A DNA stretch of 64,000 nucleotides from Candidatus Atabeyarchaeum deiterrae (GCA_037310415.1 CP147780.1:1792001-1856000); one strand, 5' to 3'. Positions 8,305 through 17,010 are shown, counted from the stretch's first letter. The notes: generated by a model not told the origin, from the letters alone. A program made the numbers and translations.

Positions 8305-9348
8305 TTGAGAATACTCAAGATGAAGAAGGACAATTTGGACTGCTTCCTTGAGGAAACCAGTTCATTTGGGGAACTCTGGGGTCCCACCAAGGAAAATGGC
8401 AAATTCACTTACGACAAGATCAAGGATCGAAGTCGACTATACTTGGGAAGCGAGATTCCAATGATTCCTCCGAAGAAACTATTCCACCCTCCAACCTTTG
8501 ACATGTTTCGTTTCTCCGAAAAAGGGCTTGAGCCAAACTATGATTGGGTTACAGACAGAGTCTTATTTGGAATCCACCCATGCGACATACACGGGCTCCT
8601 AATTCTGGACAAGTTCTTCACTGGGTCACCGGCAGATCCTTACTGGAGCAAGGCGAGAGAAAAAACGATCGTCGTGGGCTACTCATGCATCCCATGCGAA
8701 AGTTGCCTGTGCAAGTCCACTAACACTGATATTGTTCACGAAGGGTTCGACCTGTTCTTTACGGATCTCGAAGACTACTACCTGGTTTGGGTCGGTTCAA
8801 GCGTCGGAGACGACATGACACGAGTGCGACAAGACATATTCGATGAGAGAGTTGAGAAGGAAGATATCAAGAAATACTTTGAATGGAGGAAGGAAAGGGA
8901 CAGCTGCTTCGTTAAAGACTTTGAATTCAAGAATCTACCTGATATGATGGAACTAAGTTATGGAACGAAAGTATGGGACAACTGGGGGGAAAAATGCCTC
9001 TCATGCGGGCAGTGCACAATGGTCTGCCCGACCTGCAACTGCTATGACGCTTACGATCAGATCGAGTTGAGCACGGAGTTCAAGGGGACACGTCAGCGTC
9101 ATTGGGACTCTTGCATGTTTTCTGATTACTCTCTTGTCGCGGGTGGACAGAACTTCAGAGGCAAGCGATCTGACCGCGTCAAGCTATGGTATACTCACAA
9201 ACTCAGAGCATATGAGACAGAATCAGGCAAACCAGGCAATCCTTCATGTGTTGGTTGCGGGCGGTGTGTCAAGACCTGCCCCGTTGACATAAACGTGTTA
9301 ACAGTTTCAGACTCGCTCTTGACAGGGGAGGTGCCAAAGAAGCAATGA
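8305..9348 (+). CDS. hydB: Group 3b [NiFe] (sulf)hydrogenase beta subunit (Fe-S)
   Basis: GIHPCD, CLSCGQCTMVCPTC and CVGCGRCVKTCP motifs. First gene of the operon. Confidence 0.9.
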   Translation: MRILKMKKDNLDCFLEETSSFGELWGPTKENGKFTYDKIKDRSRLYLGSEIPMIPPKKLFHPPTFDMFRFSEKGLEPNYDWVTDRVLFGIHPCDIHGLLILDKFFTGSPADPYWSKAREKTIVVGYSCIPCESCLCKSTNTDIVHEGFDLFFTDLEDYYLVWVGSSVGDDMTRVRQDIFDERVEKEDIKKYFEWRKERDSCFVKDFEFKNLPDMMELSYGTKVWDNWGEKCLSCGQCTMVCPTCNCYDAYDQIELSTEFKGTRQRHWDSCMFSDYSLVAGGQNFRGKRSDRVKLWYTHKLRAYETESGKPGNPSCVGCGRCVKTCPVDINVLTVSDSLLTGEVPKKQ

Positions 9349-10208
9349 ACAGATCAAGTAGCGCTAATACACCAAACGAGAATCCTTACCTATCTGAGCC
9401 ATGCCGCATACTGCGCAAGATAGACTTGGCTGAGGGCGTCAGACTGTTCCAGATCCGACCAACAAATGAGAGCTCGACGCTTGCAGCGAACTATGCTCCT
9501 GGCCAATTCGTCATGGTCTCAGTTCCTGGAATAGGTGAAGCGCCTTTCTCTATCTCATCTACTCCTACACGTCCTGGTACCATGGAGTTAGGGATCAGAA
9601 AGGTCGGGAGAATAACTGAAGCGATATTCCAGCTGAAAGAAAAGGACATCATGTTTGTTAGAGGACCATACGGGAATAACTTTAACATCTCCGCGATGGA
9701 AGGCAAAGACCTAATTATCGTCGCTGGGGGAATAGGGCTAATCCCTCTGCGCTCGGTGCTACTTTTCGCGCTCGATAATAGGGAGCTCTTCAAACGGATA
9801 ATGTTTCTGTATGGCGCGCGAACGCCAGACGAAAGACTGTACAAGAATGAGTTGACCGAGCTGAAAGAGCGCGGAGATGTGGAGTGCCACTACTCGGTCG
9901 ACCGTGATCCCACAGGGAAATTCCTTGGAAAAGTTGGAGTAGTCACAACACTCTTTGCTGATCTCAAAGACATAGAGCCTGAGAAGACATCCGTCGTAAT
10001 CTGTGGTCCCCCGGTCATGTACACCTATGTGATAAGAGAACTGCTCAAGCTGAAAATACCTAAGAACCAGATCCAAATGACGCTCGAACGCCGAATGAAG
10101 TGCGGAATAGGCAAGTGCGGTCACTGCGCCTTGGACGAACTGTACACGTGCAGAGATGGGCCAGTCTTCACATACTGGGATGTAATCCACTTCAGGGAGT
10201 TGATCTGA
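9345..10208 (+). CDS. hydG: Group 3b hydrogenase gamma subunit (FAD/NAD(P)-binding, 2Fe-2S)
   Basis: PGQFVM, RGPYGN, AGGIGL, CGPPVM and MKCGIGKCGHC motifs. ATGA overlap with hydB. Confidence 0.92.
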   Translation: MNRSSSANTPNENPYLSEPCRILRKIDLAEGVRLFQIRPTNESSTLAANYAPGQFVMVSVPGIGEAPFSISSTPTRPGTMELGIRKVGRITEAIFQLKEKDIMFVRGPYGNNFNISAMEGKDLIIVAGGIGLIPLRSVLLFALDNRELFKRIMFLYGARTPDERLYKNELTELKERGDVECHYSVDRDPTGKFLGKVGVVTTLFADLKDIEPEKTSVVICGPPVMYTYVIRELLKLKIPKNQIQMTLERRMKCGIGKCGHCALDELYTCRDGPVFTYWDVIHFRELI

Positions 10209-10236: not shown

Positions 10237-11040
10237 ATGTCAAAGGCAAAAGAAGTAACAAAGCCTAAGCTCGGCATTTACGAATTGACAGGTTGTTCCG
10301 GCGAACAGTTAATTTTCCTCCACAGCGAGGAACTCTTACTCGACCTAGTGAAAGTCTTCGATTTACGGGTCTGGGTCATGGCAACAAGCGGTCCAGAAAT
10401 AGACGACGTAGACGTCGCCTTAATTGAGGGTTCCGTGGGCACAGAGCAGGATGCTGAACGGCTAAAGGAAATCAGAAAACGGGCTAAGACTCTAGTAGCC
10501 ATCGGTGACTGCGCCTGTTACGGATGCATCCAAGCCCAGTCAGCCAACGACGGAAAGTATCAGGAAAGACTGAAACTCGTCTACGGAGACCCCTCAAAGA
10601 TAACCGTTCGCAAACCCATGGAGGCCCAACCAGTCGACGCAATAGTCAAAGTAGACTACTCTCTACCCGGCTGCCCGATAAACGCAAGGCAGACCTTTGC
10701 ACTCGTCACTAGACTTGCAAGAGGGTTCCAACCAGAGTCACCCAAGTTCCCAGTGTGTCTGGAATGCAGAATGAAAGACAATAATTGTCTCCTATACAAC
10801 GGCAAGTTCTGCCTCGGACCAATAACCCTGGCTGGATGTGGCGCTGTCTGCCCGTCCTACAACCTCCCCTGTGTGGGTTGCTTTGGATTGAATGAAGATG
10901 GCAACCTAACCTCTGAAATAAAGAAACTTGAGGAGAACGGATTTAAAAAAGAAGATGTGATTCGACGAATCCGAACCTTTGGAGGAACCAAGGCAGCCAA
11001 AACCATAGAGAAACTACTACAGGAGGGAACACTGAAGTAA
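10237..11040 (+). CDS. hydD: Group 3b hydrogenase delta (small) subunit
   Basis: IEGSV, AIGDCAC, LPGCP, VCLEC, CLGPITLAGCGAVCP and CVGCFG motifs. Confidence 0.92.
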   Translation: MSKAKEVTKPKLGIYELTGCSGEQLIFLHSEELLLDLVKVFDLRVWVMATSGPEIDDVDVALIEGSVGTEQDAERLKEIRKRAKTLVAIGDCACYGCIQAQSANDGKYQERLKLVYGDPSKITVRKPMEAQPVDAIVKVDYSLPGCPINARQTFALVTRLARGFQPESPKFPVCLECRMKDNNCLLYNGKFCLGPITLAGCGAVCPSYNLPCVGCFGLNEDGNLTSEIKKLEENGFKKEDVIRRIRTFGGTKAAKTIEKLLQEGTLK

Positions 11041-11230
11041 ACTACCACCGTCTTAAGACGGTGGCTTTCCGTTTAGGTGATAGATATGTGGCACAGCCAA
11101 ACTCACATCACCTGCATCTGGACGGCCGAGGCGGTTTACGTCGCCTCGCTCGGCGGAAACCTGGGCTCACCCGCTCCGCCGAGTGACTGGCTCTTTGCAT
11201 GGGTTTTACGCCCAGTCAGCAACCCTATAC
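11037..11230 (-). ncRNA. Putative TnpB-type omegaRNA/reRNA scaffold inside the element
   Basis: Four consecutive internal stems plus the right-end hairpin, with a TATA-like TTCTTAAA near 11256-11263 upstream on the minus strand. The 5' end is approximate. Confidence 0.55.
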
Positions 11231-11316
11231 CCAAACTAGTAGCACTATGCGGAGGTTTAAGAACTCAACGCAATTCCTCCACTCTTTGAAAGGGTGGTCT
11301 CTTTGTGGTGATTAAT
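11037..11316 (-). mobile_element. Non-autonomous IS200/IS605-family element (280 bp, no transposase or TnpB) with both end hairpins
   Basis: Right end on the minus strand: AAAG, a perfect 20-nt palindrome (11045-11064), then TAGTTTAC. Left end: GAGA at +16..+19 followed by a hairpin (11279-11297), preceded by target TCAT. Removing the element restores an ATGA stop/start overlap. Confidence 0.82.
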
Positions 11317-12624
11317 ATGAAGCGAGACGAAAAATCAATTGACATCGAATACCTTCCCCGAGTTGAGGGGCATGGAGCTATAACAATAGAGATTACGGAT
11401 AGTGGTAAGGTTGGCGATGTGAAAGTCGACATACCAGAAGCTCCAAGACTCATAGAAGCCTTAGTGGTGGGCAAGACTCCTGAAGAAGACTTGAACATGG
11501 TTCCTAGAGTATGTGGCATATGTTCCTTCAGCCACAAGTATGCAGGCATCCGCGCCTTTGAAAAAGCATTGAATGTGGTTCCCTCTAAGAAAGCAGTCGC
11601 ACTAAGAACCCTCCTACATATTTCCGAAACCCTCCAAAGCGACGTTCTACACGTCTTCTTCCTTTCACTACCTGACCTCCTAGGTTACCCCAACGCCATA
11701 GCCATGGCTAGCGACTACAAAGACGCGGTCTTGAGTGCCATGAAGATGAAAGGGTTCGCCAACAAGATGATGGAAATAGGATCCGGTCGATTCGTACACG
11801 GAGAAAACCCAGTCATAGGAGGCTTCGGGAGATACCCATCTGAAGAAGAGCTAACACCACTCAAAGAACAATCACAAGAACTCATTCCACTAGCTGAAAA
11901 AGCAATGAAGCTGCTCGGAGACATGGAAATCCCAACATTCCCAGAACGAGAAACGATCTTCATGTGCCTCAAACCGCCAACAGGAGAATACGGCTTGGTC
12001 GGAGACACGGTATTCGTCTCGGACGGAAAAGAGACACCAGTAGAGAACTACGAACAACTCACAAACGAGAGAGTAGTCTCCCATTCGTTTGCAAAGCGAT
12101 CAACCTACGGCGGAAAACCCTTCACCGTCGGTGCCCTTGCAAGAATAAGCCTCCTCGGAGACCGCCTCAAAGGAATAGCGAAAAAGTATTACGATCAATA
12201 CTACGGTGAGCAGTGGAAGAAGAACATACTATACAACATCCACGCTCAAGCACTTGAAATCCTCTGGTGCCTGCAGGCAGTATTCCCGGTTGTAGACGAG
12301 ATCGTAGAAGCAGAAACGCCGAACGAAGGGATCGCAAAACGAGGCAGGGCAACAGGCAAGGGAACTGGCGCAGTCGAAGCGCCGAGAGGAATACTGTATC
12401 ACCACTATGAGGTCGAGAACAATCTAATCAAGCGCTCCAACATTATCACACCTACCGCGCAGAACCTTGACGACATCGAGGAGTACCTTAAAGTCGCGGC
12501 GACCAACCTTCTGAAGCAGAATGAAAAAGAGGATCTTCCGGCTAAGTTGGAGATGGTTGCGAGAGCATTCGACCCGTGCATCAGCTGCTCAGTACATGTG
12601 CTGCGACTCAAGTCTGGCCAATAG
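11317..12624 (+). CDS. hydA: Group 3b [NiFe] hydrogenase alpha (large) subunit
   Basis: RVEGHG, L1 RVCGIC, EAPRG and L2 DPCISCSVH followed by a short cleavable tail. Confidence 0.95.
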   Translation: MKRDEKSIDIEYLPRVEGHGAITIEITDSGKVGDVKVDIPEAPRLIEALVVGKTPEEDLNMVPRVCGICSFSHKYAGIRAFEKALNVVPSKKAVALRTLLHISETLQSDVLHVFFLSLPDLLGYPNAIAMASDYKDAVLSAMKMKGFANKMMEIGSGRFVHGENPVIGGFGRYPSEEELTPLKEQSQELIPLAEKAMKLLGDMEIPTFPERETIFMCLKPPTGEYGLVGDTVFVSDGKETPVENYEQLTNERVVSHSFAKRSTYGGKPFTVGALARISLLGDRLKGIAKKYYDQYYGEQWKKNILYNIHAQALEILWCLQAVFPVVDEIVEAETPNEGIAKRGRATGKGTGAVEAPRGILYHHYEVENNLIKRSNIITPTAQNLDDIEEYLKVAATNLLKQNEKEDLPAKLEMVARAFDPCISCSVHVLRLKSGQ

Positions 12625-13211
12625 AGTGCTCCAGAGAAACAGGGTTTTCAAACTCACGCCACACTGCATTTTGCATTCATCAAACTGGGAGAAAAGACGG
12701 AGCACGCACCTACTTGAACTCCGGCCAGCGTTGCAGGTGGTGGCATAAGCCGACTTATGTGTATCATGGGCGTTTCAATATGAACAATGTTGGAAACGGA
12801 TGCGATGATTAGGCGTTAATCTTTCTGGCATATCCCACTAAGCTGATTTTTCTCCACCCTTCAATCGAGTTAAATAGTCTTCACTCTATAATGCTATCCG
12901 TCGAAGAGAAGATTACATCTAATGAGCTATAGCTTCAGCCAAGTCATCTGCCAATCATTATCCCTAGTCGTTCGAGTATGATCTCGTATGGTGACCGCAT
13001 GAGGTCCGAGGAAAGAATGCCTCCACCCTGAGGGCGAGTACATGGTGGGGAAAACCCTCAGGATCTATGTCCCAGGGCTCTGTGGAGATCACCAGGATTC
13101 GCTGCCCGGCGGCATAGTTAGTGTTAGCGTGACCGATTTGATTTCGTGATTATTCAAGCCAGCGCTTTGACGGCATGAGTGTATTCTCGAATCAAGAGGT
13201 CGATAGTAATA

Positions 13212-13874
13212 ATGCAGCAAACCGGTGGACATAGAAACCATAGGACCATACTAGGAGAGCAAGCTTGTCGAGTTGTTAGAGCATCCTTGGAGGAACAGTG
13301 TTGGAGGATGCACACGTTTGATTGGGTTCCTATCTTTTCATGTTGTCAGACCTGCTCCAATGAGAAGAAACTATCGGAGGAAGCACGCAAGTCCTATGGA
13401 TGGACTAGGCCTGATTTTCTAGCGAAGTCCCTGTCCGGGAATCTCTGCCTTTTGGAAGTCAAGGGCAAGAGCAGACGCAAGTTTGTCGTTGATGACTTTA
13501 GGTATGAATCTTATGTATACTGGGAGCGATTTCTTGGCATTCCAGCATTCGTAGTTTTCTATGTAAGCTCGGATAACAGACAGGACGATAGCAGATTATA
13601 TCTGCATAAGGTCCTTGATGAGGACGTTAGAATTGGTGATATCGGCGATAACTTGGAGCTACTTGTGGACACAGAGGGCAATGTGAGCCAGACAAATGAT
13701 AAAGTCATATCGTTGAAACGAATAGATTCAGGATGGTTCCTAAGTGAAGAGCTTGAACAACAAATTGATGCCTGGGATGTATCTGAAAGTCTCTCAAAAT
13801 GGATCGAAAGAAAGGACTCCGATTTAAACACCGAGAAATTGTCAGAATCGGCCGTACGCCACCTGCTGCAATGA
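13212..13874 (+). CDS. PD-(D/E)XK nuclease-fold protein
   Basis: RPDFL...LLEVKGK catalytic pattern. ATG at 13212 follows GAGGT. Confidence 0.65.
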   Translation: MQQTGGHRNHRTILGEQACRVVRASLEEQCWRMHTFDWVPIFSCCQTCSNEKKLSEEARKSYGWTRPDFLAKSLSGNLCLLEVKGKSRRKFVVDDFRYESYVYWERFLGIPAFVVFYVSSDNRQDDSRLYLHKVLDEDVRIGDIGDNLELLVDTEGNVSQTNDKVISLKRIDSGWFLSEELEQQIDAWDVSESLSKWIERKDSDLNTEKLSESAVRHLLQ

Positions 13875-14370: not shown

Positions 14371-17010
14371 ATGCAGGACAAACCCAAGCTATTGGTTAAA
14401 TTCTCAGGATTGCCAGATGCGACAAGTGGCTTCTTCTTGCCTGGCAATAACTGGCTTATTACTGGTCATCAGAATGGCTTAGTCCTCAGATGGGATGTCG
14501 AGAAAGGCACGAGTGATCTCTTGTACAAGTGCGCTTCGGAAATTGAGACGATTTCGGGATCAGGCGGGAAGAGTATCGTAATTGGCACTCATGCAGGCGA
14601 ACTTGTCGTTCTGGATCTGGAAAACCCGAAAAACGCCGAGGTGATCCAAAAGGCTACATATGACAAGCATTCGCGAATTTGGAGAACGGTTTGGCCCACG
14701 AAAGGTGGCATAGTATTCACCTCAACATATGGTGTAATGAATGCCGTTTCGAGAACAATGGAGGGACGTTGGGAAAACGTCCCCCTCTCTGGTCATTCTG
14801 ACAGTATATTTGGTTTGGGCAACTTCGACGGCACTCTTTTGGCTTCTGGAGACTACAGGGGCAATATCCTAATCTGGAAATCCGAAGCGGGCAGGTACGC
14901 TGTGATTCAAACTCTCAAGGTCAACCAGGTCATACAAGGTATATCATGGCACAAGGATCGATCATTTGCGGTGATCGGACAAGCCGGACGCATCTATTTG
15001 TACGAAGAAACTGAGAGTAACACGCAACAATGGCAACTTATCGTCGAAGTGAGCAATGCGAGTAGTTACGGAAGATGCGTACACATAACAGACGACGGAA
15101 AGACTGTTTTTGCAGGAACGGACAATGAACTAATTCAGTTTGACATAGATTCTCAACAAGTTGGATCGATCGATATTGCGGGCGCAAGAACGCTATTCTC
15201 AAAAGGCGATACAATCTACGTTCTGACAGGAAACGCATTCGAGTCGTTTCAGAAAAAGAAAATAGAAGTTAAGGTAGGCTTCATAAGATACAGGTATGCG
15301 AAAATCAGCTTGATCGGACAAACGGGTGTAGGAAAAAGCACCCTCTGCAATTTTATTATAACTGGATCGCCCGGAGACTTGAAGTCGACTTTCGGCAGGA
15401 GGGTATGGAACTGGAGCATCCTGGGCGATGAGTCTCTTGAGAGGCGAATCATTTTCTACGATCACGGTGGTCAGGAGACAGTCCTCGGCACATTCTTGCC
15501 TTTCATAACGGATTCTGATCTCATCCTCATTGTCTTTCAACAGAACGACAAAGGGACGTTTAGAACTGCTCTTAGAACTCTAGACCAGATCAAGACCAGT
15601 CTAGCTCCAAAGACAAAGATATTCTTTGTGCAAACTCACATCGATCATCGAATGAATGAGATTGATGAGTCCTACGTTAAGAGCCTCGTTGACTCGGGGC
15701 AGATCAACGGTCACTTCAAAGTGTGTCCTTCGGACGGTTCAGGAGTGGAGGAACTGAAGTCCCGCTTGGCCAAAGAGATATCTTGGGTCGACGCACGGAT
15801 TATGATCCAATCCCAAAGCGTGGATGGCGTCATAAAGACAATCTCATCTCTGCAAGACAGGAACGTCAACACGATCAGATTTGAATTCTTCAGGAAGGCG
15901 TATGGGCAACTAGGTTTGAACATATCAGCCAAACATCTCGAATTCCTGCTCCGAGACTTAAGCGACCAAGGCATGATCGACTATTACCCTAAAGTCAGCG
16001 ATTTGATCATCATTAGCGACGAGAAGTACAATGAACTGCGAACACAGATTCCCATCTTCGTAGATCAGCACAACGGAATTGTCTCATTCGACGACCTACT
16101 TGCCGCCTTTGGACATCACGAGTACTTGCCGATATTGGACTTGGTATATCAGAGCTACGGTGTATCCATCAAGGATCAGAACCTAAGAGTTTTCCCAGAG
16201 AAACTGAAGAGCGAAATCATAACTATTCCTGAGAAGTACAGCCACCTTTTGAAAGGGAGCCAGCCTAGGGTCGTGTCTACACCGCCACGCAAGATCGAGG
16301 TAGCTCGCTTGATTGCAGCTCTTTCTGAACTCAACCTGCGATGCATTGACGCATCACAGAGTGATGGTCTGTTTTCATGGGAAGAGAATGCATGTGTCTA
16401 CTATAGGTTCCAGAGATTTGGCGATGCAATGCAGGGAGAAGTTGTCAGATGGACGTACTTTATTGCCGGCGCCAAGAAGCAGACATGCGAGCGTCTTGAA
16501 GGCGAGTTCCAAAGCATTGTCGAGAAGCTTTATGGTCCCTTTGTCGCAACCTCTCAGAACAATCTTAAAAAAAAACCGTTGAAGAAGGAAATTAGGTTCG
16601 ACGTTGCACTTTCTTTCGCCGGAGAGCAGAGAGATTACGTGAGGCAAGTAGACGAGATCCTTGAGGGCAAGGGCGTCAAAACATTTTTCGCTGAGTTTTA
16701 CACTCACCAGCTCTGGGGAACGAACCTTGCAGAGTACCTCAATGATGTTTTCTACTCACAGTCGAATTATTGTATGATGTTCGTCTCCAAAGAGTATATA
16801 GAGAAAGCTTGGCCAACGCATGAACGCAGAAGTGCGATTGCCAGACAGATCAAACAGTTTGGCAACTACATATTGCCCGTCATATTTGACGATTCTGAGG
16901 TTCCAGGTTTTCAGCTTTCATCAATAGGATATTTAGACGCGAGAAAAATGTCTCCATCAGATGTGGCTAATCAATTTGTCAAAAAACTGGAAGCAAGTCA
17001 GGGCAGTTAG
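14371..17010 (+). CDS. WD40-like beta-propeller - Roc GTPase - COR-like - TIR multidomain protein
   Basis: N-terminal WD-type blades (GHSDSIFG...LASGDYRGNILIWK). P-loop GQTGVGKST, G3 DHGGQE and G4-like THID. C-terminal FDVALSFAGEQR...WPTHE TIR domain. Confidence 0.85.
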   Translation: MQDKPKLLVKFSGLPDATSGFFLPGNNWLITGHQNGLVLRWDVEKGTSDLLYKCASEIETISGSGGKSIVIGTHAGELVVLDLENPKNAEVIQKATYDKHSRIWRTVWPTKGGIVFTSTYGVMNAVSRTMEGRWENVPLSGHSDSIFGLGNFDGTLLASGDYRGNILIWKSEAGRYAVIQTLKVNQVIQGISWHKDRSFAVIGQAGRIYLYEETESNTQQWQLIVEVSNASSYGRCVHITDDGKTVFAGTDNELIQFDIDSQQVGSIDIAGARTLFSKGDTIYVLTGNAFESFQKKKIEVKVGFIRYRYAKISLIGQTGVGKSTLCNFIITGSPGDLKSTFGRRVWNWSILGDESLERRIIFYDHGGQETVLGTFLPFITDSDLILIVFQQNDKGTFRTALRTLDQIKTSLAPKTKIFFVQTHIDHRMNEIDESYVKSLVDSGQINGHFKVCPSDGSGVEELKSRLAKEISWVDARIMIQSQSVDGVIKTISSLQDRNVNTIRFEFFRKAYGQLGLNISAKHLEFLLRDLSDQGMIDYYPKVSDLIIISDEKYNELRTQIPIFVDQHNGIVSFDDLLAAFGHHEYLPILDLVYQSYGVSIKDQNLRVFPEKLKSEIITIPEKYSHLLKGSQPRVVSTPPRKIEVARLIAALSELNLRCIDASQSDGLFSWEENACVYYRFQRFGDAMQGEVVRWTYFIAGAKKQTCERLEGEFQSIVEKLYGPFVATSQNNLKKKPLKKEIRFDVALSFAGEQRDYVRQVDEILEGKGVKTFFAEFYTHQLWGTNLAEYLNDVFYSQSNYCMMFVSKEYIEKAWPTHERRSAIARQIKQFGNYILPVIFDDSEVPGFQLSSIGYLDARKMSPSDVANQFVKKLEASQGS

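What the first reader, a model, noticed from the sequence alone, without database searches (positions are those of the whole stretch)
11020..11265. Stand-alone omegaRNA-like cassette antisense to the hydrogenase operon
Seen: the element interior is almost entirely stems: 11184-11190/11212-11218, 11149-11157/11175-11183, 11127-11133/11142-11148 and 11075-11081/11107-11113, then the right-end palindrome. A TATA-like box lies upstream on the minus strand. Established: TnpB reRNAs derive from the right end and take their guide from flanking host DNA. Inference: this copy expresses a guide (TTCAGTGTTCCCTCC...) that would direct a trans-encoded TnpB to the empty hydD/hydA junction (TAM TCAT). It may also modulate hydD/hydA expression as an antisense RNA.
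Basis: partly seen in the sequence, partly recalled or inferred. Interest (0 to 1): 0.72.

Follow-up and report, generated by a model that had tools for sequence, protein, structure and literature searches.

The report
Gene-less transposon carrying a guide RNA
The spacer between two hydrogenase genes is a 280-base protein-less jumping element of the IS200/IS605 family that still carries the folded guide-RNA scaffold normally found at the end of tnpB genes; this kind of element is already known from bacteria, so it is a clean but ordinary find.

Summary
Window 11037-11316 (top strand = minus) is a 280-nt tnpB-less IS200/IS605-type element (PATE/MITE). It sits exactly in the ATGA stop/start overlap that joins hydD and hydA in two related genomes.

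- **Ends:** its left and right ends align with two tnpB-carrying elements and with other gene-less copies in the same genome.
- **Target motif:** the tetranucleotide next to the left end is TCAT, as in 10 of 12 family members.
- **RNA scaffold:** a covariance model built only from nine tnpB 3' ends hits the 64-kb window once, at 11186-11037 on the minus strand (100 bits, E 1.7e-30, full length). Over 34 family members, 43 of 49 pairs show compensatory changes.
- **Mobility:** metagenome contigs from other studies hold 88-95% identical copies with different flanks, one breaking exactly at 11037.
- **Host genes:** the insertion keeps both hyd genes intact. The right end supplies hydD's stop codon, and the left end supplies a Shine-Dalgarno-like GGTGAT before hydA.

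Not shown: transcription, use by a TnpB in trans (the best candidate in this genome is only 31-37% identical to the TnpBs linked to the closest scaffolds), or any antisense effect. This is a new member of a known kind.

The parts
11037..11316 (-). Whole non-autonomous IS200/IS605-type element (280 nt, no protein gene)
   Evidence: Both ends align with gene-less copies and with tnpB elements of the same genome. Relatives have hydD and hydA joined with no spacer. A contig of run X8 diverges exactly at 11037. Element length about 280 nt.
11317..11320 (-). Transposon-adjacent motif TCAT (ATGA on the plus strand, holding the hydA start codon 11317-11319)
   Evidence: TCAT flanks the left end in 10 of 12 family elements, one has TCAC and one is offset by a base. 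Two X8 copies also end in ATGA on the plus strand.
11298..11316 (-). 19-nt left-end terminus. On the plus strand it reads as a Shine-Dalgarno-like GGTGAT (11307-11312), 4 nt before the hydA ATG
   Evidence: Coordinates. The 16S rRNA 3' end of this genome ends in GGATCACCTCCT.
11279..11297 (-). Left-end subterminal hairpin
   Evidence: Conserved, with changes that keep the stem, in gene-less copies and upstream of two tnpB genes.
11255..11269 (-). Conserved left-end block holding the TATA-like TTCTTAAA (11263-11256). Putative promoter inherited from tnpB
   Evidence: Found in all left ends compared. In the tnpB element at genome 408323-409690 it begins about 30 nt before the predicted start codon. 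Promoter function is inferred.
11184..11219 (-). Hairpin upstream of the scaffold, specific to this copy's lineage
   Evidence: Present in the minimum-free-energy fold. Outside the family model. Broken in one natural copy.
11037..11186 (-). omegaRNA-like scaffold: P1 11149-11183, P2 11128-11147, P3 11075-11113, long-range helix 11067-11071/11118-11122, P4 (right-end hairpin) 11044-11065, conserved terminus 11037-11044
   Evidence: Only hit of model R1 in the window: 100 bits, E 1.7e-30, model positions 1-181. 43 of 49 model pairs form in this copy. Family covariation.
11017..11036 (-). Predicted guide. It is flanking host DNA and is antisense to the last codons of hydD
   Evidence: It follows directly on the conserved right-end terminus, after which the flanks of all family members diverge. 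The 20-mer is unique in the genome at up to 3 mismatches. The guide role is inferred from TnpB biology.
10237..11040 (+). hydD (NiFe-hydrogenase small subunit type, 267 aa). The third base of its last codon and its TAA stop (11037-11040) come from the element
   Evidence: Pfam PF01058. Same length as the G001 orthologue. Junction reconstruction.
11317..12624 (+). hydA (NiFe-hydrogenase large subunit), intact
   Evidence: Pfam PF00374. Its N-terminus is collinear with the G001 and G002 orthologues.

Best explanation
Window 11037-11316 is a protein-less derivative (PATE/MITE) of an IS200/IS605-family, tnpB-only insertion sequence. Its top strand is the window's minus strand. It keeps three parts of the parent element:
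- the left end, with the subterminal hairpin and the A/T-rich block that precedes tnpB in full-length relatives;
- the right-end hairpin;
- in its last 150 nt, the structured RNA scaffold that overlaps the 3' end of tnpB in full-length elements (the omegaRNA or reRNA scaffold).

**Shown.** The identity, the boundaries and the conserved structure are shown. The element inserted 3' of TCAT, exactly inside the ATGA stop/start overlap of hydD and hydA. Both genes survived. The right-end terminus supplies the last base of a synonymous Lys codon plus a TAA stop. The left-end terminus places GGTGAT 4 nt before the hydA ATG.

**Inferred.**
1. A Y1 TnpA transposase inserted the element by single-strand peel-and-paste.
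2. The element is transcribed from the inherited left-end promoter across the right end.
3. That would give an omegaRNA whose guide is 11036 to about 11017.
4. A TnpB made elsewhere would load this RNA and cut only the empty junction (TCAT followed by the guide match) if the element ever excises. The element would then be restored by recombination.

I put the identity at about 0.9. I put present-day use by a TnpB at about 0.35-0.45.
For: **Ends.** Both ends align with gene-less copies at genome 311756-312146 and 2085274-2085668. They also align with the ends of tnpB elements at 408323-409690 and 1485417-1486639. The inner stem of the right-end hairpin covaries between copies.

**Empty site.** In G001 and G002, hydD and hydA overlap as GTGA and ATGA with no spacer. 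Removing 11037-11316 recreates exactly that overlap.

**Mobility.** Contigs of runs X7 and X8, from other studies, hold copies 88-95% identical to the interior but with other flanks. One breaks at 11037, and two end in ATGA on the left-end side.

**TAM.** TCAT lies next to 10 of 12 family left ends.

**Scaffold.**
- Model R1 was built from nine tnpB 3' ends only. It gives one hit in the window, 11186-11037 minus, at 100 bits, E 1.7e-30, full length.
- A sequence-only HMM built without the window gives E 2e-14.
- In the seed alignment 29 of 49 pairs show compensatory changes. 84% of cells are paired, against 33-46% when partners are slid.
- Over 34 family members 43 of 49 pairs show compensatory changes. 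87.5% of cells are paired, against 34-44% slid.
- 43 of 49 pairs form in the window copy.

**Strand.** The family alignment holds many G-U pairs that would be A-C on the other strand. Four natural transitions in stems of X7/X8 copies (11071, 11113, 11131, 11150) all give G-U on the minus strand and A-C on the plus strand.

**Candidate partner.** An intact-looking TnpB with the same scaffold type is in the genome at 408324-409592.

**Literature.** PATEs that often encode omegaRNAs, to be used in trans by TnpB, are described in bioRxiv 10.1101/2023.03.14.532601.
Against: - No experiment has shown that the tnpB-linked scaffolds of this subfamily are omegaRNAs. That rests on position and analogy.
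- No Rfam family matched the window copy or the full-length L176 element.
- The copy is single in this genome.
- The apex of its P1 helix is cut to 2 nt, against 28-40 nt in the closest tnpB-linked forms. More distant tnpB-linked members do have 5-nt apices.
- The closest scaffold (72-76%) belongs to a tnpB in another organism (L176).
- The best TnpB in this genome is only 37% identical to the L176 TnpB and 31% to the G002 type, so a compatible partner may be missing.
- Only one Y1 transposase gene was found, inside a different IS605-type element.
Confidence: 0.8

Rival explanations
1. Same origin, but the element is now an inert fossil. It would be an orphaned guide-RNA cassette with no compatible TnpB or TnpA in this genome, neither mobile nor used, and tolerated because it happens to keep both hyd genes readable.
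For: It is a single copy in the genome. No tnpB in the genome carries the same scaffold subtype. The two other full gene-less copies are also of a subtype whose tnpB is seen only in the sister genus G002. There is only one Y1 transposase gene. The P1 apex is deleted.
Against: 43 of 49 scaffold pairs are still intact. All conserved single-stranded motifs of the model are kept. Near-identical copies elsewhere changed stems only to G-U pairs. This fits recent activity or constraint, though it could also mean the copies are simply young.
Confidence: 0.35
2. The element has been taken over by the host. Either its minus-strand RNA acts as an antisense regulator of the hydD-hydA junction, or the plus-strand copy inside the operon mRNA acts as a structured spacer that sets the ratio of small to large hydrogenase subunit.
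For: The RNA would be fully complementary to the intercistronic mRNA and to the hydD 3' end. The plus strand also folds well (z -4.1). The insertion replaces translational coupling by an independent Shine-Dalgarno-like site.
Against: The insertion is absent from the same operon in both related genomes. Every antisense insertion has this complementarity. The structure is inherited from tnpB elements, and its G-U pattern points to the minus strand, not to the mRNA. There are no expression data.
Confidence: 0.05
3. It is not a mobile element at all, but a chance GC-rich structured intergenic spacer or an operon-specific RNA motif.
For: No whole-length copy elsewhere in the genome by BLAST. No Rfam hit.
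Against: End homology, the TCAT rule, the empty site in relatives, copies with other flanks in metagenomes, and the covariance-model hit at E 1.7e-30.
Confidence: 0.01

Closest known systems
PATE-like minimal IS200/IS605 elements of Geobacillus stearothermophilus (Meers et al., bioRxiv 10.1101/2023.03.14.532601)
   Same: They have no protein gene and keep conserved left and right ends. They are described as often encoding omegaRNAs that a TnpB from another element must use in trans. They need a TnpA made elsewhere.
   Different: Those are bacterial. Here the host is an archaeon of a wetland metagenome (an Asgard archaeon according to earlier notes of this scan, which I did not check). The ends, the TAM (TCAT) and the RNA family are different, and no activity has been measured.
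TnpB reRNA/omegaRNA of ISDra2 and relatives (from my own knowledge of Karvelis et al. 2021 and Altae-Tran et al. 2021)
   Same: The scaffold overlaps the 3' end of tnpB and the right end. The guide is the flank just outside the right end. The TAM equals the transposon's target motif next to the left end.
   Different: No detectable sequence or Rfam-level similarity. The comparison rests on position and architecture. The window copy lacks tnpB.
IS608 of Helicobacter pylori, the reference for Y1-transposase peel-and-paste elements (from my own knowledge)
   Same: Subterminal hairpins on one strand at both ends, no inverted repeats, no target duplication, and insertion 3' of a fixed tetranucleotide. 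The 19-nt distance from the cleavage site to the left hairpin foot is the spacing I recall for IS608.
   Different: A different target (TCAT instead of TTAC). The parent elements here carry tnpB only. I did not work out the pairing between the DNA guide and the cleavage site.
sotRNAs of haloarchaeal IS1341-type tnpB genes (from my own knowledge of Gomes-Filho et al. 2015)
   Same: Archaeal sense-overlapping RNAs from the 3' end of tnpB, later recognised as omegaRNA-like.
   Different: They overlap an intact tnpB. I did not compare sequences.

Membership tests
IS200/IS605-family non-autonomous element (PATE/MITE) | Subterminal hairpins at both ends on the same strand, without terminal inverted repeats | tested here: met
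   Left hairpin 11297-11279 and right hairpin 11064-11045, both read on the minus strand.
IS200/IS605-family non-autonomous element (PATE/MITE) | Insertion 3' of a conserved tetranucleotide with no target-site duplication; a scarless empty site | tested here: met
   TCAT beside 10 of 12 left ends. Removing 11037-11316 recreates the ATGA overlap seen in G001 and G002, with no duplicated bases.
IS200/IS605-family non-autonomous element (PATE/MITE) | Ends homologous to those of protein-coding members of the family | tested here: met
   Left and right ends match the tnpB elements at genome 408323-409690 and 1485417-1486639, and L176.
IS200/IS605-family non-autonomous element (PATE/MITE) | No transposase or nuclease gene inside | tested here: met
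   280 nt. The open frame upstream of the right end is 37 aa. The only longer frames are 41- and 70-aa plus-strand ORFs with GTG starts.
IS200/IS605-family non-autonomous element (PATE/MITE) | Mobility: copies at other sites | tested here: met
   Contigs of X7 and X8 hold 88-95% identical copies with other flanks. These are contigs only and the organisms are unknown. No second copy in this genome.
IS200/IS605-family non-autonomous element (PATE/MITE) | A compatible Y1 TnpA available in trans | tested here: inconclusive
   One PF01797 gene in the genome, at 1377345-1377641, next to a different tnpB. Its end specificity is unknown.
TnpB omegaRNA (reRNA) | Lies at the right end on the tnpB-sense strand and stops at the transposon boundary, so that the flank becomes the guide | tested here: met
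   The model hit ends at 11037, the boundary.
TnpB omegaRNA (reRNA) | Shares a conserved, covarying secondary structure with the 3' ends of tnpB genes | tested here: met
   R1 was built from tnpB 3' ends only: E 1.7e-30. Covariation. About 15 of 34 family hits lie at the end of a long open frame (295 aa or more). Pfam confirmed L176 and L017 as TnpB.
TnpB omegaRNA (reRNA) | Match to a curated omegaRNA family | tested here: not met
   No Rfam 15 family at E up to 10 for the window copy or for the full-length L176 element. This RNA family seems not to be curated.
TnpB omegaRNA (reRNA) | Transcribed and processed to scaffold plus a guide of about 16-20 nt | not testable with these tools
   No RNA holder listed.
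TnpB omegaRNA (reRNA) | Bound by TnpB and directs TAM-dependent DNA cleavage | not testable with these tools
   Needs biochemistry. The candidate partner is the TnpB at genome 408324-409592.
cis-antisense regulatory RNA of the hyd operon | A minus-strand transcript that changes hydD/hydA expression | not testable with these tools
   No expression data. The element is absent from the orthologous operons.

The most novel reading that the evidence does not exclude
The cassette has been co-opted. Its guide RNA, alone as an antisense RNA or loaded into a TnpB-family protein, would tune expression of the hydD/hydA junction of a NiFe-hydrogenase operon in an Asgard archaeon. A milder form of this reading also remains open. 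In it, the gene-less members of this family carry a Shine-Dalgarno-like left-end terminus, and their TCAT target is the reverse of ATGA. Together these would let them land on start codons in antisense without silencing the gene.
Probability: 0.05. Interest if true: 0.7.

Novelty: new member of a known kind. Interest (0 to 1): 0.33.

Why it matters
The result shows that guide-RNA-only mini-transposons, described so far for bacterial IS605 elements, also occur in this archaeal phylum, and often. Model R1 hit 24 of 150 sampled genomes, and about half of the hits I examined lack tnpB. It also yields a covarying RNA family with exact transposon boundaries and a TAM, which Rfam does not cover. That family could be used to annotate these genomes and to pick TnpB/omegaRNA pairs for testing. 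The insertion itself is a tidy natural example of how such an element can split two translationally coupled genes without breaking either. None of this changes the current picture of TnpB biology.

Tried and rejected
- **Rfam.** The whole window at gathering score, 10800-11500 at E up to 10, and the full-length L176 element at E up to 10 gave nothing relevant.
- **RNA evidence.** No RNA holder was listed for the stretch. The one metatranscriptome-labelled run that I laid (X12) placed no contig on it. So nothing can be said about expression.
- **Exact right-end palindrome.** Scans of the metagenome and genome collections for it found nothing.
- **Looser right-end pattern.** Nearly all were chance matches: only L176 and loci of this genome and its relatives carried the upstream motifs.
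- **BLAST of the whole element.** Against the genome and 40 relatives it found only the 45-nt left-end block. That first suggested a unique sequence. The family appeared only when the ends were aligned separately.
- **Pseudoknot.** I looked by eye for pairing between the conserved GCGG(A) in the P1 interior and the linker after P2. The registers differ between subgroups, so I left it out.
- **Hairpin 11184-11219.** It is not part of the conserved family.
- **MAFFT alignment with the gene-less copies.** It misaligned P3. I used the alignment of tnpB-linked sequences only.
- **Relatives of the L176 genome.** The search gave one further partial match (G154) and no closer parent.
- **Promoter scan.** I did not run the sigma-70 promoter scan, because it does not apply to archaea.

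Full report
**Setting.** The window is G000:C1:1792001-1856000 of a 2.76-Mb single-contig genome. DNA runs that hold this stretch are wetland and freshwater-sediment metagenomes. Earlier notes of this scan call the organism an Asgard archaeon; I did not check the taxonomy. ORFs 8305-9348, 9345-10208, 10237-11040 and 11305/11317-12624 carry the Pfam domains of a four-subunit NiFe-hydrogenase: an Fe-S subunit, an FAD/NAD subunit, the small subunit PF01058 and the large subunit PF00374. The finding lies in the 276-nt gap between the small-subunit gene (hydD) and the large-subunit gene (hydA).

**Observation.** The segment folds better than dinucleotide shuffles on both strands, with z -3.1 on minus and -4.1 on plus. 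Energy alone therefore cannot tell the strands apart. GC content rises to 0.64 inside the gap, against about 0.45-0.5 around it.

**It is a transposon, and its boundaries are exact.**
- BLAST of the whole gap found no second copy in the genome. It found only a 45-nt block near the hydA side that recurs at several places.
- Two of those places lie about 40 nt upstream of tnpB genes, in the tnpB sense. The others lie in 400-600-nt gene-free gaps.
- Read on the minus strand, the gap aligns at both ends with gene-less elements at genome 311756-312146 and 2085274-2085668. Both hairpins also recur at the two ends of the tnpB elements at 408323-409690 and 1485417-1486639.
- The right-end hairpin keeps its outer stem, and its inner stem covaries.
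- In the two genomes of the sister genus, the orthologous hydD and hydA overlap as GTGA (G001) or ATGA (G002) with no spacer.
- Deleting 11037-11316 from the window recreates that arrangement exactly. The last hydD codon becomes AAA, followed by TGA, with the hydA ATG overlapping it.
- A contig of run X8 that is otherwise about 94% identical to the element diverges precisely at 11037. Two other contigs end on the left-end side in ATGA.
- Across the family, flanks diverge directly after the conserved right-end terminus. TCAT precedes the left end in 10 of 12 elements.

The element is therefore 11037-11316 (280 nt), with its top strand on minus, inserted 3' of TCAT without duplication. That is the signature of IS200/IS605 elements. 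It has no protein gene.

**The last 150 nt are a conserved RNA scaffold of tnpB 3' ends.**
- The best outside match is L176 (record JASEEY010000011.1, labelled a Methanocellales MAG). There a 420-aa TnpB gene (Pfam PF07282 and a weak PF01385 hit) ends in a right end that is 76% identical to window 11037-11164.
- I aligned nine 3' ends of tnpB genes from L176, G000, G001, G002 and G004, without the window and without any gene-less copy.
- RNAalifold and my own bracket string give helices P1, P2, P3 and P4. 29 of 49 pairs have compensatory changes. 84% of cells are paired, against 33-46% when the 3' partners are slid. No shuffle of 500 reaches the observed values.
- The covariance model built from that alignment (R1) finds one hit in the 64-kb window: 11186-11037 on the minus strand, at 100 bits, E 1.7e-30, covering all 181 model positions.
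- A plain HMM built without the window finds the same place at E 2e-14.
- In the window copy 43 of 49 model pairs form, and the conserved unpaired motifs of the model are kept.
- The main difference is the apex of P1: 2 nt here, against 28-40 nt in the closest tnpB-linked forms. More distant tnpB-linked members have 5-nt apices.

**Family and strand.**
- R1 hits six places in this genome: two tnpB-linked and four gene-less, one of these partial. It hits 24 of 150 sampled genomes of the phylum.
- Over 34 aligned members, 43 of 49 pairs show compensatory changes. 87.5% of cells pair, against 34-44% when slid. This alignment is fitted to the model, so it leans towards the structure, but the seed result is independent of that.
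- About 15 of the 34 lie at the end of a long open frame, and the rest stand alone.
- Many pairs are G-U in the tnpB sense.
- In the near-identical metagenome copies, the four transitions that fall in stems (11071, 11113, 11131, 11150) all give G-U on the minus strand and A-C on the plus strand. This is a small and not independent sample. It agrees with an RNA read from the minus strand.

**Likely mechanism.** The shown parts are the identity, the ends, the TAM-like motif and the scaffold homology. The rest is inferred from established TnpB/IS605 biology.
- A Y1 TnpA inserted the element as single-stranded DNA.
- The left end carries a conserved block with TTCTTAAA (11263-11256). In the genome's own tnpB element this block begins about 30 nt before the predicted start, so it is a plausible archaeal promoter.
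- Transcription from there across the right end would give a scaffold followed by the guide window:11017-11036:-.
- That 20-mer occurs only here in the genome at up to 3 mismatches. At the occupied site the right-end terminus precedes it, not TCAT.
- A TnpB loaded with this RNA would therefore cut only the empty junction after excision. This is the retention mechanism described by Meers et al., who also note that PATEs often encode omegaRNAs that must be used in trans.

**Whether a partner exists here is open.** The only tnpB in the genome with a strong R1 scaffold is the one at 408324-409592. By eye in the translation, it keeps the RuvC Asp, Glu and Asp motifs and the zinc-ribbon cysteines, and it matches PF07282. 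It is only 37% identical to the L176 TnpB and 31% identical to the G002 type. Its own scaffold is 61% identical to the window copy. Only one Y1 transposase gene was found.

**Effect on the host operon.** This follows directly from the sequence. The insertion separates two genes that are translationally coupled in relatives. hydD keeps its length of 267 aa, as in G001. The base at 11037 makes the last codon AAG, still Lys, and 11038-11040 give TAA. Both come from the conserved right-end terminus. hydA keeps its ATG, and GGTGAT now lies 4 nt upstream of it. GGTGAT is complementary to the 16S rRNA 3' end of this genome. Whether hydA expression suffers is unknown.

**Comparison with known systems and verdict.** The element meets every computable defining feature of an IS200/IS605 PATE and of an omegaRNA locus, except a match to a curated RNA family (none). 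Transcription and TnpB use could not be tested. PATEs that carry omegaRNAs are already described in bacteria. The paper on mobile elements of Atabeyarchaeia, a wetland Asgard lineage, mentions neither TnpB nor IS200 nor MITEs. Whether that paper covers this genome I cannot say. I rate this a new member of a known kind.

Noticed in passing
L003:1161-1551 and L002:1156-1550 (genome 311756-312146 and 2085274-2085668): Two further gene-less elements of the same family, about 390-395 nt, with full R1 scaffolds (154 and 160 bits). Their scaffold subtype matches tnpB genes of the sister genus G002, not any tnpB of this genome.
   Followed up: partly
L004:1324-1458 (genome 2365209-2365343) and genome 2005687-2005773: Broken members. 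One is a partial scaffold that lacks the end of the right hairpin (59 bits). The other is a lone left end with TCAT and no R1 hit beside it.
   Followed up: partly
L176:1813-3177: A full-length 1365-nt tnpB element in a MAG labelled Methanocellales carries the scaffold closest to the window copy (72-76%), closer than any scaffold in the window's own phylum sample. This hints at transfer of the element between distant archaea in the same habitats.
   Followed up: partly
window 11298-11316 and the matching left-end termini of other copies: The gene-less copies of this genome and the two X8 contigs read, on the strand opposite the element, as GGTG(A/G)T or GGAGG a few bases before the ATGA of the target. 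The tnpB-carrying elements do not. This could be chance. It could also help antisense insertions at start codons to be tolerated.
   Followed up: partly
phylum sample, loci L301-L330: Model R1 hits 24 of 150 sampled genomes. Roughly half of the 34 hits examined have no long open frame upstream, so stand-alone scaffolds are common in this phylum.
   Followed up: partly
L032:1501-2751 and L033/L043: The tnpB orthologues closest to the genome's 408324-409592 gene are interrupted in relatives. G001 has an in-frame TGA, and G002 contig C101 has the gene split into two overlapping frames.
   Followed up: no
window 14371-17010 (+): An 879-aa protein that combines WD40 repeats, a Roc/Ras-type GTPase domain and a C-terminal TIR domain, about 1.7 kb downstream of the hyd operon.
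   Followed up: no
window 13179-13874 (+): A 231-aa ORF with no Pfam hit, between the hyd operon and the WD40-Roc-TIR gene.
   Followed up: no
window 11065-11070 and 11037-11040 (minus strand): The four bases just 5' of the right hairpin foot are AAAG and the element ends in TTAC. I did not test this.
   Followed up: no
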